This document shows, in pieces, positions 4,590 through 46,800 of a stretch of 64,000 nucleotides of DNA. Position 1 is the stretch's first letter. Every line of letters starts with the position of its first letter. The DNA is from Octopus sinensis. Taxonomy: Eukaryota. The translations under genes and the position numbers were made by a program. The stretch spans positions 37,510,001 through 37,574,000 of the forward strand of contig NC_043001.1 of the NCBI RefSeq assembly GCF_006345805.1, written 5' to 3'. The notes under the pieces were generated by a model that saw nothing but the letters and a program-made list of their open reading frames with translations, made no database searches and was not told the DNA's origin.

Positions 4590-4885
4590 TTGTATAATAT
4601 TACGGAGATGTACTTGCATAGCAAGTGATTTGATCTGAGATCGTGTGCTGAAACGAAAACAATTGCAGTGTGGAAGGTGTTTGTAAGCCATTTAAGAAAC
4701 ACACAAAAGCCGTTCGATTCCCTTCAACATTTAAGTTTAATTTGTCAAAATATTTTCGTCGCTTTAAGACCGCGACCTGTTCACTGACAACAATCCGTGC
4801 TGCATCTGAGAAAGTAACAGTTAGTTCGTTATATATATGTACATACATACATACATACACACACCTTCCACGCTGCAATTGTTTT
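4590..4885 (-). mobile_element. Short Penelope-type pLTR-like repeat carrying the G3-C8 hammerhead, with inverted partial copy
   Basis: Near-identical to 40310-40493 in the opposite orientation. 4656-4680 is inverted relative to 4861-4885 (1 mismatch). Confidence 0.6.
4742..4790 (-). ncRNA. Type I hammerhead ribozyme fold with G3-C8 swapped core
   Basis: Minus strand: UUGUCA-GUGAACA-G-GUCGC(GGUCUUAAA)GCGAC-GAAA-AUAU-UU-UGACAA. Perfect 6-bp stem I, 5-bp stem II, palindromic AAUAUU stem III. Confidence 0.7.
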
Positions 4886-9880: not shown

Positions 9881-10200
9881 TCATCATCATCATCATCGTT
9901 TAACGTCCGTTTTACACGCTAGCATGGGTTGGACGGTTCGACCGGGGTCTGGAAGCCATGGAGGCTGTACCAGGCTCTAGTCTAATTTGACAGTGTTTCT
10001 ACAGCTGGATGCCCTTCCTAACGCCAACCACTCCGTGAGTGTAGTGGGTGTTTTTTGCGTACCACCAGCACAGGGGCCAGAGCAGGCTGGCAAATTGCCA
10101 CGATAGGTTGGTGCTTTTACGTGTCACCGACACGGACGCCAGCCAGGCGGCGTTGGCATCTGCCACCTTCAGACGGTGCTTTTTACGTATCACCGGTATG
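9879..10200 (-). mobile_element. Non-autonomous retroelement family C with (GAT)n tail and internal tandem units
   Basis: GGAAGGGCATCCAGCTGTAGAAAC..CCAACCCATGCTAGCATGG..AAACGATGATG. Copies at about 17455-17768, 28125-28635, 29015-29340, 30355-30541, 33257-33565, 35510-35970, 42355-42500, 57700-57905, 62700-62955. Confidence 0.8.
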
Positions 10201-10501
10201 GGTGTCTTAACTACAATTTCCATTTGAATTTTTATTTTGATGTTGATGTACTTGACTCAATAGGTCTCTTCAAGAACAGCGAGTCACTCTACGATCCAAG
10301 GTTAACACAGCAGGCTGTCCTGCGAGCCATGAACTCACTTCATTTGTCGGGTCTTCGAAGTCACAGCATATCTCCATATATATATATTCAGATGAATATA
10401 GTACTTAAGATGAAGTATCAGAATTTAATGTGGTATTATCCATACAATTTCAAAGTAAGGTGATTAAAATCAAAATAAGCAACAAGGATATCCAAAGGTA
10501 A

Positions 10502-22830: not shown

Positions 22831-25559
22831 AGAATTTTTTTTTTAGATGTCTTGTGATTTTATCATGCCATTGTTACATCTTTTTTTTTTTATGCAAACA
22901 TTTTTTAATGTACAGCAGTGTTTAAGTATCAGTGAGTCACATCAATTACTTTAGGGGTTTTTTTTTACGATGCTACTGTGTTGGAGAAATCTCTCTTTTA
23001 CTCTTTTACTTGTTTCAGTCGTTTGACTGCAGCCATGCTGGAGCACCACTTTTAGTCGAGCAAATCAACCCCAGGACTTATTCTATTGGTCTCTTTTGCC
23101 AAACTGCTAAGTTACGGTGACGTAAACACACCAGCAAGCGATGTTGGGGGGGAGGGGAGACAAACACACACACATATACATATATATGATGGGCTTCTTT
23201 CAGTTTCCGTCTACTAAATCCACTCACAAGGCTTTGGTCGGCCCGAGGCTATAGTAGAAGACACTTGCCCAAGGTGCCACGCAGTGGGACTGAACCCAGA
23301 ATCATGTAGTTGGTAAACAAACTACTTACCACACAGTCACTCCTGCACCTCTCCGGAAACAAACTTTTATTGTTATTTTTCAGGATGATTTTTTTTATTT
23401 TTATTTTGGTAAATAAACTCACACACTATATACTTGTTCTACACTTCAGCTTTATTATTGTTCTTGTTTTAGTGTCCTTTGTCTGAAATCTTTCATCACA
23501 CATCCTGTGATCCCTTCAGTGACTCTCTCTTCCATGTGTCTCCTCCTGTCCTGTTTAGTCCATTCAGAATGGGTGAATATATTGTGTGTGTGTGTGTTTA
23601 TTTGTCAAAAGAAAAAATAATGACTATTCCGATATATAATAATATCTGTTTCAACACACGATTTCACATCAAGAATCTTGCAAAACAAATACATTAAACT
23701 TTTTCTTTCACAATACAAGTCAGGTAGTGACTAAGTCGTTATTGTGATACAATTATCAAACATTATGGTCAAAATGAAAAATCTTTTGTTGATAAAATAC
23801 TGTAATTATTTCTTGTAAAAAAAATTCCTCAGTAAAAATAGTTAAGTAGTTTTATCATTTTACAGTTAAATAATTTGTGTTAAGAATATCCAACTTTAAA
23901 AACACATTTAACAGTTCTGACAAGTGTTGAATTTTCAGAATCCACTTCTGATGCATGTGGAAACTGATAAAAATGGTTAGCATCTGAGTGGTGAGAATCT
24001 AGAGTCTTAAAGACTGTTAGTCTTGTCATGTCAAGGGCATAACAACCTCTGCCAAGATTAAATACCTCACCTGTACACCCTGTAAAGTGGTTGATAATAG
24101 GAATAACACCCAGCCATAGAAACCGAACCTAAAAAAAAATGTACAAGTGAGATGTGGTCCTTCAACCAATCTATAAAGACAGTAACTCCAAATTAGTACT
24201 TACCTGGAGTGTGATGACCTGTCCAACTCATGCAAACATGAAAAGTGGATGTAAAATGATGGTGATTCCTTTAGTTTTCTTTATATCTGCAGTTATGGTA
24301 ATTTTTCCTTATATCAGCAGTTAGGATAATTTTAAAGTACTTTTAACTAGCCACAGGACCCTGTGTTTCCAGGCAGAAAAGGAAATAGAATATTCTTATA
24401 CTCATCTGGTACTCCAGAGTATTAGCAGTTAAGTAAAATGACTTCTGCATTACATACTTGACTTAATGAGTAATTATTTCTTTTTCTTCAGCATTCTCTA
24501 AGTTCTAGTGACATCAGTACTACTCTTGCTATTTTTCCTTGTGAAATAGTGAAATACTTATACCATGGTAATTTTCTATAGCCTCTCTATTATCATCATC
24601 ATTATCATTGCTATTCTTTCATTCATTTTTCTGTGTCACATGGGTTGGGCAGGTCATCATAGCCTGAGTTCTGTTCTTATTTGGAGCTACTGCCACCTCC
24701 TAAATGGGTTGGGGATCACATCTCACTTGTACATTACATATTTTTTGATATGTTTGCTGTAGCTAGATACATTTTATTGTGGCAGCTACATTCGAGATTG
24801 TTTTGGTTTAGAAAAGACTGTTTTTTTCTTCACCATCATTAGAAGGTTGTCTCATCTCCAGCAGGCAAAAAGGAAGTATGGAAAGATCGCCAGCATGAGG
24901 GGCATAGAAATGACCCAGTGGTAGGCGTGGACAATAGGGGTGAAAGTGAAAGAAGAGAGAGAGAGAGAGCGATAAAATGCTACAAGATGATTGTTGGTAA
25001 AGAGATTCAAAAGGGCTGATGGGGGAAGAGAAAGTGATAGGAAGGAGACTATGGTGGAAGAAGAAGGATTGGAAATAAGAGTAGATAACAGTGATTAATA
25101 ATGGAAGAGAGAGTGTATGTGTGTATGAGAGAGAGAGAAATGGATAGCTATGAAGATGAGTGATAGTAAAGGAGTAGTGGTGATAGGTGTCAATAATGAA
25201 TGATAGATGAAGTATTGGGAGAGAGAGGGAATTATGGTTAACTATGAAGAAGTAGCGATTGAATACAGACAAATTCAATGCACTGTTATCTATCGTTATG
25301 CATTCCATGATGAGTGAGAAACAGTGATAATAGGGAGGTGTATTGGCTGGGGAAGAGAGTGTGATAGGTGAGTCTAAGGAAGCAAATGGAAGAATGATAC
25401 ATTGAGACTTAATATGAACAGAATAGTTAGGAGAAACCAAAACGTAGACATTTTACATCCCAATCTCTATCATCATAGTTTATACATCTTGTTTCTTCAT
25501 GCTCATGGGCTGTGCAGGCTCTCTTTAGTAAAGCATGTCTCAAATCTCTGTCCTTTTTA

Positions 25560-37881: not shown

Positions 37882-38350
37882 TTGTTTCATTTTTTTTTTT
37901 AACAGATGATGCCTGTGAATTTAAGGAAGCGACTATAGGAAATTGTGATTCTAATGCTTTTGTCATAAGCATTTTATCTGATTACAATGATCGACCGATA
38001 GAGTTTCTTTTACAATAATGCTGGTCGTGGTGACGACAACGACGATGATGACAATGATGATGATGATGATGATGATGATAATTTCAACCATGCATAAAAC
38101 AAAACAAACAAATATAAAATAGAATACAGAAGCATATTGCAATCGTAAAATTTATGCTCCTACACATGCACACACACACACACACATATACATATACAGA
38201 TACATAAGGAGCTTGCTTGCCAACCACATGGTTCCAAGTTCAGTCCCACAGCATGGCACCTTGAACAAGTGTCTTCTAGTTTAGCCTCGGGCCGACCAAA
38301 GCCTTGTGAATGGATTTGTAGATGGAAACTGAAAGAAGCCCATTGTATAC

Positions 38351-39367: not shown

Positions 39368-40309
39368 CATTGATCCCAGTACTTGACTGGTATTCAATTT
39401 TATTGAACTCAAGACAGTGAAAGGCAATGTTAACCTTAGTAGGATTGGAACAAATACCACAGACCATTTAACAATTCTACCCACTTGAGTGATATTTTTG
39501 AGGTAGAAAGTCATATAGTGAAATGGAAACATTCAGTTTCATTAACCTCAGTAAATACCTGTTGATCTAAGATTTTAATTTCTCTGTCTGTTAATCTCAT
39601 CCCCGGTCTTGAAATATTCTGTTTAATATTTGCATATCTATAAGGCAGCAAGCTGGCAGAATCCTTAACACACCAGGCAAAATGCTTAGTGGTATTTCAT
39701 CTGACTTTATGTTCTGAATTCAAATTCTGTTGAGGTTGACTTTGCCTTTCATTTTTTCAGGGTCGATAAAATAAATACCAGTTGAGCACTGGATTCAATG
39801 TAATCAACTTGCCCCCCCGTCCCCGAATTGCTGGCCTTGTGCCAAAATTGGAAACCAATATTTACATATCTTGACTACATTTGATTCCTTATTGTCATTA
39901 AGTGTCTTATGCCTAGGTATGTGCATATTGCTTGTCTGGATTCAGGTGTGGAACCTGATGACAAATGAAGATCAAACCAGTTGAAACATAGTGTAGATGT
40001 TAATACTAAATATTTACTTTCATCTCCGAAAGGTTAATAGACTGAAAAACTGAAATTTTATTAGCAACTAATCATCTCAGAAATTTTGACATTTAATCAA
40101 CAAATAACTTATTTTATCATTCTAGCAGGAGAGAATTAACCATAGTAATTCTTTAATTTAGAAGTGAAAGTGACAAAACTAAAAACCGTAAAATCAAGAC
40201 TATCATCTTTTTTTTCAACAACAATAATAGTAATGATAATGTTAATAAAAATAATCATCTCACTAACACTCTTCTATGCTTGTCTGAGACAGACGAAATT
40301 TGTTGAGGC

Positions 40310-40493
40310 GTGAACAGGTCGCGGTCTTAAAGCGACGAAAATATTTTGACAAATTAAACTTAAATGTTGAAGTGAATCGAACGGCTTTTGTGTGTTTTTT
40401 AAATGGCTTACAAACACCTTCCACGCTGCAATTGTTTTTGTTTCAGCACACGATCTCAGATCAAATCACTTGCTTTGCAAGTACATCACTGTA
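40310..40493 (+). mobile_element. Second copy of the G3-C8 hammerhead element, 5'-truncated at the core
   Basis: GTGAACAGGTCGCGGTCTTAAAGCGACGAAAATATTTTGACA at 40310-40351 is identical to the 4.7-kb copy but lacks the stem I 5' strand. Confidence 0.65.
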
Positions 40494-43867: not shown

Positions 43868-46800
43868 AAGAGTTAAGGAATGGAGTAGATAAGATCCAGG
43901 CTACATATGTTTCATAGTGAGTGGAACCTTGGAAGTGGTAAATATCCACATGAGGAGTATACCACAGGCTGCTCATCAGGCCAAAGGTATCTTCATTAAA
44001 TGAAGGTTTACATTGTAGCAACGAGGTACATTGAAGTTTCAATCAGAATGTGTAGAGAGCAGTAAGAGTGAAGAACATAAATCATCATCATCATCATTTA
44101 AGAGTGAAGAACATAAATCATCATCATCATCATTTAATGTCCGTTGTCCATGCTGGCATGGGTTGGACCCCCCACCTCAAATAGAAAAGAATAAAAGAAA
44201 TAATAACACAAGAGAGTGGGAGATTTAAGGAATTTAAGCAAGGTCATTTGACTGGTAGTTTTCAATAGGGCTGTTTTGGCCAAGTCATAGAGATTTGCAA
44301 GGGGATTGGTATATATTCTTCTATTTGTTTCAGTCATTTGACTGCAGCCATGCTAGAGCACCACCTTTAGTCTAATAAATCGACCCCAGGACTTATTCTT
44401 TGTAAGCCTAGTACTTATTCTATCAGACCCTTTTGCCAAACTACTAAGTTACAGGGACGTAAACACACCAACATCACTTGTCAAGTTATGGTGAGGGGAC
44501 AAATACAGACACACACACACACACATGTATATATATGGCAGACTTCTTTCAGTTTCTGTCTACCAAATCCACTCACAAGGCTTTGGTCAACCTGAAGCTG
44601 TAGCAGAAGCCATTTGCCCAAAGTGCCATGCAGTGGTACTGAACCCGGAACCATGTGGGTTGGTAAGCAAGCTACTTATCACACGGCCACTTGTCTATGT
44701 ATGTAAGTATGTATGTATGTATGAATGTATGCATGCATGTATGTATGTATCATATGTATGTATATACATATACTAGTATTATAACTCAATTACATTTGGG
44801 TCTACTCAGACCACACTTCAAAGATGATGAATTTTGCTCTAGAGACCATGCCTTTCAATTGAGCAAACTCAAAGTTGCCATGCAAACACCCAAGCAATTT
44901 TAACGTAGGTGTGCAAATTTTCAGGTCAATCTGACCACATTTACTAACACTTTTGCCTGCACAACTGCTTGTGAGACAATGCTCGCCCTTTTCACAAATA
45001 TATAGTTGTGAAAGGGGCAGGCATTGAAATAAATACATATACAGGATCTGTAGGTGCATGCATGATCTGTGTGATAAAGAAGATCATTTCACAATCATAT
45101 GGCTTTGCATTCTGTTCCACTATATAGCACTTTGGCCAATTGTCTTCTAATAGAGCTCCATGCCAACCAAGGCCTTGTCAGCAGATTTGGCAGACCGAAA
45201 CTCAAAGAGGCTCTGCACATGTATGTGTGTGTGTGTGCTCGCACATGCTTATATATGTACACGAGTATCCTAGTTTTGACACCGCATACTAGCTTCACTG
45301 TCTCCCAAGTGGTGTTATTTGTTGGCAATCTTCCTTGAAAGCATGTCAGGTCATTGTGCCTGATGTGCTTGAAGGATTAGAGGAAATATTACCTTGCTAG
45401 GCAACAGGTAAGGGTGCATGACAAGAAGGACACCAAGCCATATTGATATGTGTCTCAACGTTTTACTGATCCATGCAAGTGTGGAAAAGTGGCTGATAAA
45501 ATTACAATGATGATGGTGAGGATCTATTTCAATATATATAAGTTGATATAATTTTCAAGGCTCTCTTTGCTTTAGCTATACCTATCACTTTTATTAAGAC
45601 TCTTTGCACAACTCTTTGCATAAAAGAAGTATTTTCATTATAGTTGTACTTTGCTAGGCCTTATTTTTGTATCTATATTTATTTATTTATAAATATAGTT
45701 TTACTAGATAAGGATTTTTGCTCATTGTATTTAAGTTTCTATATGCAAGTGATTTAATATTACTTTAGGTGCAGGAGTGGCTGTGTGGTAAGTAGCTTGC
45801 TTACCAACCACATGGTTCCGGGTTCATTTCCACTGCGTGGCATCTTGGGCAAGTGTCTTCTACTATAGCCTTGGGCTGACCAAAGCCTTGTGAGTGGATT
45901 TGGTAGACAGAAACTGAAAGAAACCCGTCATATATATGTATGTGTGTGTATATGTTTGTGTGTCTGTGTTTGTCCCCCCAACATTGCTTGACAACCGATG
46001 GTGGTGTGTTTACGTCCCCATAACTTAGCAGTTTGGCAAAAGAGACCAATAGAATAAGTACTAGGCTTACAAAGAATAAGTCCTGGGGAAGGGGTCAATT
46101 TGCTCAACTAGAGGTGGTGCTCCAGCATGGCCACAGTCAAATGACTGAAACAATTAAAAGAATTAAGAGTAGTGCATATACAAGTAGTAGTAGTAGTAGA
46201 AGTAGTCTGTCAATCATAAAGAAACTACAGCTATAACTAGCAATTATTTGCCTTATTAGTACCCGCCTCATAACTACATCTAATACCTCTTCTGCATCAA
46301 TCGTTTTCCCTTCATCCCTCTAACTACAGCACTATTTCCTCAGCTGATGTAGTTATATGAGAGCAGAACTGCACATATTTCAATCCACTTTTGTGCTATC
46401 GATTATCACTTTTCCTAGAACTACTTCCTTTGCCATCCATCCTGCACTTCCAGTATCATCCTTTACAACATTTTCTCCACTGAACATCTACCATTTATGC
46501 CCCACCGTTTTTGTCATTCACTATATCCATCCCTATGTACCTCTGATCTCCATCCCCGTCACTGTGTATCTTCTTTCTCCTTCCCCAACACTTCACATCA
46601 TCTCCCTATTTCTCATCTGTCTATGTTTTATTACACCATTGCTCTCTCCACTTTTTTATGTGTTGCTACCTATTACCTTTTCCTCTTTGACCCACTCATA
46701 TTTTCTCTATTTTCCCCCATACTGAAATTCACCAGTCTCTTCATCTCCACACCATTCTTTTCATTCACTTCTATTCTCACCTTTACAGTCTGTCATTCAC

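What the first reader, a model, noticed from the sequence alone, without database searches (positions are those of the whole stretch)
4742..4790. Natural hammerhead ribozyme with the C3-G8 core pair swapped to G3-C8, in a repeated element
Seen: on the minus strand, perfect stem I (UUGUCA/UGACAA), perfect stem II (GUCGC/GCGAC), GAAA and a palindromic AAUAUU stem III surround GUGAACA where CUGANGA is expected. The same core is present in the second copy at 40310. Established: positions 3 and 8 form a tertiary Watson-Crick pair in the active hammerhead, and compensatory swaps restore much activity; Penelope-type minimal hammerheads with palindromic stem III cleave as dimers. Inference: the double change is selected covariation, marking an active ribozyme family that CUGANGA motif searches would miss. 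I cannot confirm whether this variant is already catalogued.
Basis: partly seen in the sequence, partly recalled or inferred. Interest (0 to 1): 0.85.

Follow-up and report, generated by a model that had tools for sequence, protein, structure and literature searches.

The report
Swapped-core hammerhead in a Penelope retrotransposon
A jumping-gene family with thousands of copies in this animal genome carries a hammerhead-shaped RNA motif whose two paired core letters are exchanged (G3-C8 instead of C3-G8), while its sister families keep the usual pair, so it is likely a working natural variant of this self-cutting RNA, though cutting is untested.

Summary
The motif is real at 4742-4790 (minus strand). 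It is the minimal type I hammerhead in the pseudo-LTR of a Penelope-like retrotransposon family: longer copies carry a reverse transcriptase plus GIY-YIG ORF, and in tandem copies the motif lies 56 nt before the ORF start, just after a predicted intron. G3-C8 is the family state (5,708 exact 19-mers; 94 of 100 copies picked by flanking anchors). Sister families in the genome have C3-G8, and related elements in metagenomes have C-G (4) or U-A (3). The pair therefore covaries and G3-C8 is derived, which supports selection on the fold. My paper searches found only engineered G3-C8 and natural U3-A8, but the key paper (Lünse et al.) was not readable. This scan has noted G3-C8 before in phage and protist DNA. 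Verdict: new variant of a known kind, moderate interest.

The parts
4742..4790 (-). Minimal type I hammerhead motif with G3-C8 core pair
   Evidence: Sequence, fold, descriptor scan
4785..4790 (-). Stem I, 5' strand
   Evidence: Pairs with 4742-4747
4778..4784 (-). Core positions 3-9, GUGAACA (G3 at 4784, C8 at 4779, A9 at 4778)
   Evidence: homologous to C3-G8 and U3-A8 cores in alignment A2
4777..4777 (-). Unpaired G between positions 9 and 10.1
   Evidence: Invariant G in 12 of 12 motifs of A2; an extra base here is typical of Penelope-type hammerheads (PMC4209133)
4758..4776 (-). Stem-loop II (5 bp, 9-nt loop), closed by G10.1-C11.1
   Evidence: loop letters differ between subfamilies while the stem stays
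4749..4757 (-). G12-A14 and the palindromic helix III half (A15.1 to U16.1), predicted to pair with a second copy
   Evidence: duplex energy of the 6-mer only -0.2 kcal/mol
4748..4748 (-). U17, predicted cleavage site (cut between 4748 and 4747)
   Evidence: Hammerhead numbering applied; cut not shown
4742..4747 (-). Stem I, 3' strand
4806..4845 (-). 3' end of a predicted spliceosomal intron: branch-like CTAAC 4824-4820, pyrimidine tract, acceptor AG 4807-4806
   Evidence: YAG in 61 of 63 copies and GTRAG donor in 41 of 44 longer copies; no spliced joint seen
4593..4691 (-). Start codon (4691-4689) and first ~31 codons of the element's RT-endonuclease ORF, cut off by the 3' end of this copy
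   Evidence: Translation matches the N-terminus of the 608-aa ORF in tandem copy L118, which runs into the L097 protein
4593..4656 (-). 3' tail between the short (~4657) and long (~4593) end of the family
   Evidence: 14 short, 13 long, 3 other of 30 copies;
4593..4845 (-). 5'-truncated copy of the Penelope-like element (end of pseudo-LTR plus tail)
   Evidence: 93% identical to L118 over 247 nt
4856..4885 (+). Short inverted piece of the element (reverse complement of 4656-4685) at the 5' side
   Evidence: 19 of 30 other copies have an inverted piece within 600 nt upstream
40310..40493 (+). Second copy, truncated at G3; no 5' strand of stem I

Best explanation
This is the minimal hammerhead motif in the pseudo-LTR of a Penelope-like retrotransposon family in which the core pair C3-G8 has become G3-C8, and it likely still cuts the element's RNA slowly, as a dimer and probably with help from the element's protein. 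Shown: the element anatomy, the family-wide G3-C8 state, the C-G and U-A states of relatives, and that G3-C8 is derived. Inferred: transcripts from tandem copies bring two motifs together; their AAUAUU palindromes pair to make helix III; G3 pairs with C8 and so places the 2'-OH of residue 8, the general acid, as G8 does in ordinary hammerheads; G12 is unchanged; the cut after U17 would trim long precursors about 56 nt before the start codon. The window's own copy is a dead 5'-truncated insertion.
For: Element: RT motifs and GIY-YIG domain upstream of the motif; an open 1042-aa frame with the motif ~920 nt behind it; tandem copy L118 with the motif before the ORF; tails and 5' inversions. Family state: 5,708 exact G3-C8 19-mers against 216 with another base at 3; 94 of the 100 listed copies picked by flanking anchors have G3 and C8 at the right spacing, none C3 (counted by eye). 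Covariation: sister families (3,496 pattern matches) have G8 in 98 of 100 listed and C3 in 18 of 20 loci read; RT-linked metagenome relatives have C-G 4 times and U-A 3 times; 12 of 12 motifs pair at 3:8, three pair types. Tree: the G3-C8 family is sister to a C3-G8 family (100/100) inside C-G and U-A relatives. Subfamily differences fall in loop II and flanks, not in the core. Biochemistry in print: the C3G/G8C double mutant partly rescues a Penelope hammerhead, which needs the element's protein (PMC11167929); the 2'-OH of residue 8 is the proposed general acid (PMC6155905; PMC8495972).
Against: No cleavage data. Rescue by the double change is only partial. Minimal hammerheads cut poorly even as dimers (PMC4209133), and cleavage was not needed for insertion in vitro. 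G3 is predicted to extend stem I by pairing with U17 (probability 0.67), which competes with G3-C8. The 6-bp helix III is worth only -0.2 kcal/mol, and the lowest-energy dimer does not form it. The sister family tolerates A9C, a sign that the core in this clade is lax. 195 copies carry unpaired G3-G8, more than the 151 with U or A at 8. In the old subfamily 5 of 30 copies have a change in stem I (a wobble).
Confidence: 0.65

Rival explanations
1. The hammerhead fold is kept, with its 3:8 pair, but cutting is lost or irrelevant. The structure serves as a binding site for the element's protein or tunes splicing or translation of the 5' UTR.
For: Cleavage was dispensable for insertion in vitro and no RNA ends were found at the cut site in Anolis (PMC11167929). 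The motif starts 16 nt after the predicted splice acceptor and ends 50 nt before the ATG. A9C is fixed in the sister family. The G3-U17 wobble and weak helix III disfavour the active form.
Against: The 3:8 pair belongs to the catalytically arranged core, and it is kept through three pair types. U4, G5, A6, G12, A13, A14 and A15.1 are invariant in 12 of 12 motifs, which fits selection on catalysis better than on a generic hairpin.
Confidence: 0.25
2. The ribozyme is dead in this family. Two unselected changes were fixed in the master element and are complementary by luck.
For: The branch to the family is long (0.36 changes per protein column). Any route from C-G to G-C passes a mismatch. Unpaired G3-G8 copies recur in all subfamilies.
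Against: Every shift at 3:8 seen among RT-linked relatives gave a Watson-Crick pair, in a scan that allowed any letters there. The rest of the core and both stems are intact while loop II changed several times.
Confidence: 0.08
3. The motif is a chance look-alike in a repeat.
For: Rfam gives no match; folding z-scores are modest.
Against: 5 hits in 300 simulated windows; it lies at the place where sister elements carry canonical hammerheads and aligns to them.
Confidence: 0.02

Closest known systems
Minimal type I hammerheads in pseudo-LTRs of metazoan Penelope-like elements (Cervera and de la Peña 2014, PMC4209133)
   Same: Type I layout, extra base between 9 and 10.1, G10.1-C11.1, palindromic rudimentary helix III, place in the pseudo-LTR, intron end just 5' of helix I as in Drosophila virilis Penelope, thousands of truncated copies.
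   Different: Core pair G3-C8. None of the motifs in their supplementary alignment (Fig. S3, 56 by its legend) starts with G3. The inserted base is G, where their consensus has H (one listed motif has G).
Natural U3-A8 core variants (Perreault 2011, PMC3088659 section 8; Schistosoma Cercyon elements, PMC4209133)
   Same: Natural compensatory change at the same tertiary pair; U3-A8 also occurs in three relatives found here.
   Different: U3-A8 needs two transitions and can pass through a U-G wobble; G3-C8 needs two transversions and a mismatched step.
Engineered C3G/G8C double mutants (Anolis PAc element, PMC11167929; Kalweit and Hammann, PMC3884650)
   Same: The same two letters; partial rescue of cleavage.
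   Different: Laboratory mutants; here the state is fixed in an amplifying family.
Neptune/Nematis-type EN+ Penelope-like elements (Craig 2021, PMC8557442)
   Same: C-terminal GIY-YIG, a CX2-5CxxC linker (CQSNCAVC), (TA)n-rich flanks, tail, 5' inversions.
   Different: I had no reference sequences, so Neptune versus Nematis is not settled; the tail here is ~64 nt against the 30-40 nt described.
Small dimer-cleaving hammerhead variants of Penelope-like elements (Lünse, Weinberg, Breaker, RNA Biol 14:1499; recalled and seen only as a reference)
   Same: Reduced stem III, dimer cleavage (as reported in review PMC6765202, passages).
   Different: Unknown: the paper was not held, so I could not check whether it lists G3-C8.

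Membership tests
Hammerhead ribozyme (type I) | Three-way junction of stems I, II, III around the core | tested here: met
   Stems I and II fold and covary among relatives; helix III is a palindromic half
Hammerhead ribozyme (type I) | Literal core C3 U4 G5 A6 N7 G8 A9 ... G12 A13 A14 | tested here: not met
   G3 and C8; the other core letters match. Rfam gathering: no hit
Hammerhead ribozyme (type I) | Watson-Crick complementarity of positions 3 and 8 | tested here: met
   G-C here; 12 of 12 paired in A2 (C-G 7, U-A 3, G-C 2)
Hammerhead ribozyme (type I) | A15.1-U16.1 and NUH cleavage triplet | tested here: met
   A15.1 4754, U16.1 4749, triplet UUU
Hammerhead ribozyme (type I) | Site-specific self-cleavage | not testable with these tools
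   Needs a bench assay; only contigs were available
Minimal hammerhead of Penelope-like elements | Extra base 9/10.1, G10.1-C11.1, palindromic helix III | tested here: met
   features from PMC4209133
Minimal hammerhead of Penelope-like elements | Lies in the pseudo-LTR on the sense strand of the ORF | tested here: met
   Behind the ORF in L097-L101 and L103, before it in L118
EN+ Penelope-like element | Single ORF with RT and C-terminal GIY-YIG | tested here: met
   SLYP, YVDD, YIGET motifs in one 1042-aa frame; Pfam GIY-YIG on C-terminal pieces, E 3e-05 and 3.7e-04. The whole L097 protein gave no Pfam hit and the sister a weak RVT_1 hit
EN+ Penelope-like element | Partial tandems, 5' inverted copy, tail | tested here: met
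EN+ Penelope-like element | Spliceosomal intron in the pseudo-LTR/5' UTR | tested here: inconclusive
   Consensus donor, branch and acceptor kept; no spliced joint in four runs of contigs
Neptune or Nematis clade | CX2-5CxxC linker before the endonuclease | tested here: met
   feature from PMC8557442
Neptune or Nematis clade | Placement in an RT tree with reference elements | not tested

The most novel reading that the evidence does not exclude
G3-C8 is a working natural hammerhead core not yet in print, reached through a mismatched step in an amplifying animal retrotransposon and co-adapted with U17 to avoid a G3-C17 trap. In this clade the 3:8 pair runs through C-G, U-A and G-C under selection, which would show that Penelope hammerheads are selected for catalysis in vivo and that core-motif searches miss whole families, including elements now called hammerhead-free.
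Probability: 0.35. Interest if true: 0.6.

Novelty: new variant of a known kind. Interest (0 to 1): 0.43.

Why it matters
It would complete the natural covariation at the hammerhead's 3:8 tertiary pair with the inverted G-C form, so far seen in the papers I could read only as a laboratory rescue mutant. It bears on an open question: what Penelope hammerheads do, given weak cleavage in vitro and no need for it in an insertion assay. A compensated double transversion in a family with thousands of copies argues that the catalytic fold is under selection, and the family with its C3-G8 sister gives a ready natural pair for assays. Practically, CUGANGA descriptors and Rfam miss this family, so hammerhead counts in animal genomes are too low.

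Tried and rejected
Rfam at gathering score: no hit. PDB sequence search with the ORF: no hit. Pfam on the whole ORF: no hit. Expression and splicing: no RNA holder listed on record; four runs laid as contigs cover the motif but show no intron-skipping joint, and contigs cannot show ends or strand; no conclusion drawn. My strict descriptor missed the sister family's motif because of C9 and a non-palindromic helix III; it was found by eye. G3-G8 copies as one surviving intermediate lineage: rejected, they are spread over all subfamilies (13 changes on a weakly resolved tree, 53 of 60 rows kept). The loop-subfamily tally had a labelling error and was not used. A reading frame running across the motif in some copies: rejected as the real ORF, since subfamily indels shift it and the ORF starts at 4691. 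A hammerhead-like hairpin just before the second copy (about 40270-40303): unique in the genome, treated as chance. In the loose scan of 43 metagenome loci I dropped 9 of 16 rows: eight lay inside or upstream of the ORF match and one had a 26-nt loop and no palindrome; many other loci end before the 3' repeat. Papers not held: Lünse et al., Przybilski and Hammann 2007, Martick and Scott 2006, Scott 2013, two more by DOI. PMC11014351 (passages) gave nothing on this pair.

Full report
Observation. The minus strand at 4790-4742 has stem I, the core GUGAACA, one unpaired G, stem II with a 9-nt loop, GAA, the palindrome AAUAUU, U17 and the 3' strand of stem I. RNAfold forms stems I and II (z = -2.25 for the 49-mer). 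A descriptor allowing any Watson-Crick pair at 3:8 finds only this site in the window and 5 sites in 300 simulated windows. Rfam finds nothing at gathering score. The second copy (40310-40493) begins at G3 and has no stem I partner.

What the repeat is. The 121-nt query gave 1,131 candidates in the 2.7-Gb genome. Copies share window 4845-4593 and often have inverted partial copies upstream. Walking upstream led to copies with reverse-transcriptase motifs and a GIY-YIG domain (Pfam E 3e-05 and 3.7e-04 on the C-terminal pieces). Locus L097 holds an open 1042-aa frame with SLYP, YVDD, a CX2-5CxxC linker and YIGET, and the G3-C8 motif about 920 nt after the stop. Pfam gave no hit on the whole L097 protein and only a weak RVT_1 hit on its sister. 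In tandem copy L118 the motif precedes the ORF, whose ATG corresponds to window 4691-4689. Of 30 copies picked by flanking anchors, 14 end near 4657, 13 near 4593 and 3 elsewhere; 19 have a 5' inverted piece. Two ends, tails, partial tandems and 5' inversions are the described marks of Penelope-like elements (PMC8557442, passages; PMC11167929, passages and part 1 of the main text). The linker points to the Neptune or Nematis type; I could not place it further. A predicted intron ends 16 nt before stem I: GTRAG donor in 41 of 44 and YAG acceptor in 61 of 63 copies, as with the intron next to the hammerhead in Drosophila virilis Penelope (PMC4209133). Splicing was not seen. The host is likely an octopus; this is an inference from the best named protein hit (Octopus vulgaris, 57%).

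G3-C8 is the family state. Exact 19-mer counts: G3-C8 5,708; G3 with G8 195; G3 with U8 or A8 151; another base at 3, 216, none C3-G8 among the 100 listed. A pattern anchored outside the motif matched 2,742 places; of the 100 listed, 94 have G3 and C8 at the right spacing, 5 another base at 8, 1 a deletion (by eye). In 30 of these aligned, the common differences lie in loop II and the flanks, with further changes at CpG sites of stem II and one stem I wobble in 5 copies; none in the core. Single copies decay without selection, so this shows the master state, not function.

Covariation between families. A sister family, about 59% identical in the RT piece, has the same layout with C3-G8 but C9 (read in 3 loci). 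A pattern for it and two related families matched 3,496 places; 98 of 100 listed have G8, none C8; 18 of 20 loci read have C3, none G3. Of 80 metagenome loci encoding relatives I scanned the 43 closest with positions 3, 8 and 9 free. Seven had a motif just behind the ORF: C-G in L148, L150, L152, L164 and U-A in L149, L151, L175; nine other rows were dropped. In the 12-motif alignment all pair at 3:8 (C-G 7, U-A 3, G-C 2, the last two from one family), stem II is 100% paired, and the covariation score (0.76) exceeds all 500 shuffles and all slid controls. The rows were chosen for looking like hammerheads, so the stem counts lean that way; the 3:8 letters were not constrained. An RT tree makes the G3-C8 family sister to the C3-G8 family (100/100), inside a clade with L148 and L149 (99/100), so G3-C8 is derived (midpoint root, one long branch).

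How it likely works. Established: positions 3 and 8 pair, the 2'-OH of residue 8 is the proposed general acid and G12 the base (PMC6155905, passages); G8C is crippling and C3G partly rescues it (PMC8495972, passage); the same holds for a Penelope hammerhead, which cuts only with the element's protein; minimal motifs cut weakly as dimers. Inferred: tandem transcripts pair two palindromes into helix III and are cut after U17, 56 nt before the ATG. Against easy activity: the 6-bp helix is worth -0.2 kcal/mol, the lowest-energy dimer does not contain it, and G3 pairs with U17 with probability 0.67 in the monomer. With C17 that probability would be 0.98, and Kalweit and Hammann note that G3-C8 does worse in a C17 context (PMC3884650, passages; 'data not shown'). 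U17 in this family fits avoidance of that trap, but U17 is also common in C3-G8 relatives, so it is not proof. Cleavage was dispensable for insertion in vitro, which keeps a non-cutting structural role open.

An unexplained point. G3-G8 copies outnumber the matching transversion at position 3 (59 against 16 over the same stretch of chromosomes, counted by eye). They are scattered over all subfamilies, so they look recurrent, not like one surviving intermediate.

Novelty. Natural U3-A8 is in print (PMC3088659, section 8; PMC4209133, main text parts 1-2 and supplement parts 1-2 of 3). Searches for G3-C8 and C3G/G8C returned only engineered cases, and a search for octopus with hammerhead and retrotransposon (listing only) showed no paper on this family. 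These searches cover open-licence papers only; Lünse et al., which by my recall reports about 150,000 small variants, and several biochemical papers were not held, and their supplements could list G3-C8. One supplement file of PMC4209133 was not searchable. I also read the abstract and one section of bioRxiv 10.64898/2026.07.22.740005 and passages of PMC6765202. Earlier notes of this scan report G3-C8 in three phage and three protist-element loci; I did not test them. What this case adds is an animal family of thousands of copies, an intact ORF, a canonical sister family and a polarised tree.

Verdict. New variant of a known kind. Membership among Penelope-type hammerhead motifs is near certain by homology, although the literal core consensus is not met. 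Retained cleavage is likely (about 0.65) but untested. Interest 0.43.

Noticed in passing
G000, sister family, e.g. L104 3' of the ORF; L331-L333: A sister Penelope-like family carries a hammerhead with C3-G8 but C at position 9, in roughly two thirds of the 100 listed matches; relative L149 has U3-A8 with C9. A9C looks like a second natural core variant in this clade.
   Followed up: partly
G000-wide; L227-L256: G3-G8 copies (195) exceed those with U or A at position 8 (151) and recur in all subfamilies; a mutation or reverse-transcription hotspot is possible.
   Followed up: partly
L148-L152, L164, L175 and the genome's families: All 12 aligned motifs of this clade have G as the extra base between positions 9 and 10.1, where the published consensus has A, C or U.
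   Followed up: partly
L133-L138, L140 (several on contig C30): Short tandem units of about 400 nt, and nested shorter ones, holding the hammerhead plus the first codons of the ORF; they resemble non-autonomous retrozyme-like arrays and would put two motifs on one transcript.
   Followed up: no
L062:1234-2533: A mariner-type transposon (Pfam Transposase_1, HTH_48) is inserted in the predicted intron of the element.
   Followed up: no
L104:2236-3822 (-): A 528-aa minus-strand frame switches into RT sequence midway, consistent with a 5' inverted copy of the sister element.
   Followed up: no
window 40270-40303: A hairpin followed by GAAA lies just before the second copy; unique in the genome, probably chance.
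   Followed up: yes
window-wide, e.g. 9885-10231, 23160-23348, 38205-38318, 45758-45953: Many copies of several short interspersed repeats and long (TA)n, (CA)n microsatellites; not studied.
   Followed up: no
runs X2, X3, X16, X17 on L097:2650-3900: Contigs under four coded organism labels cover the motif region, so the family may be shared by related species; core letters there were not resolved.
   Followed up: partly
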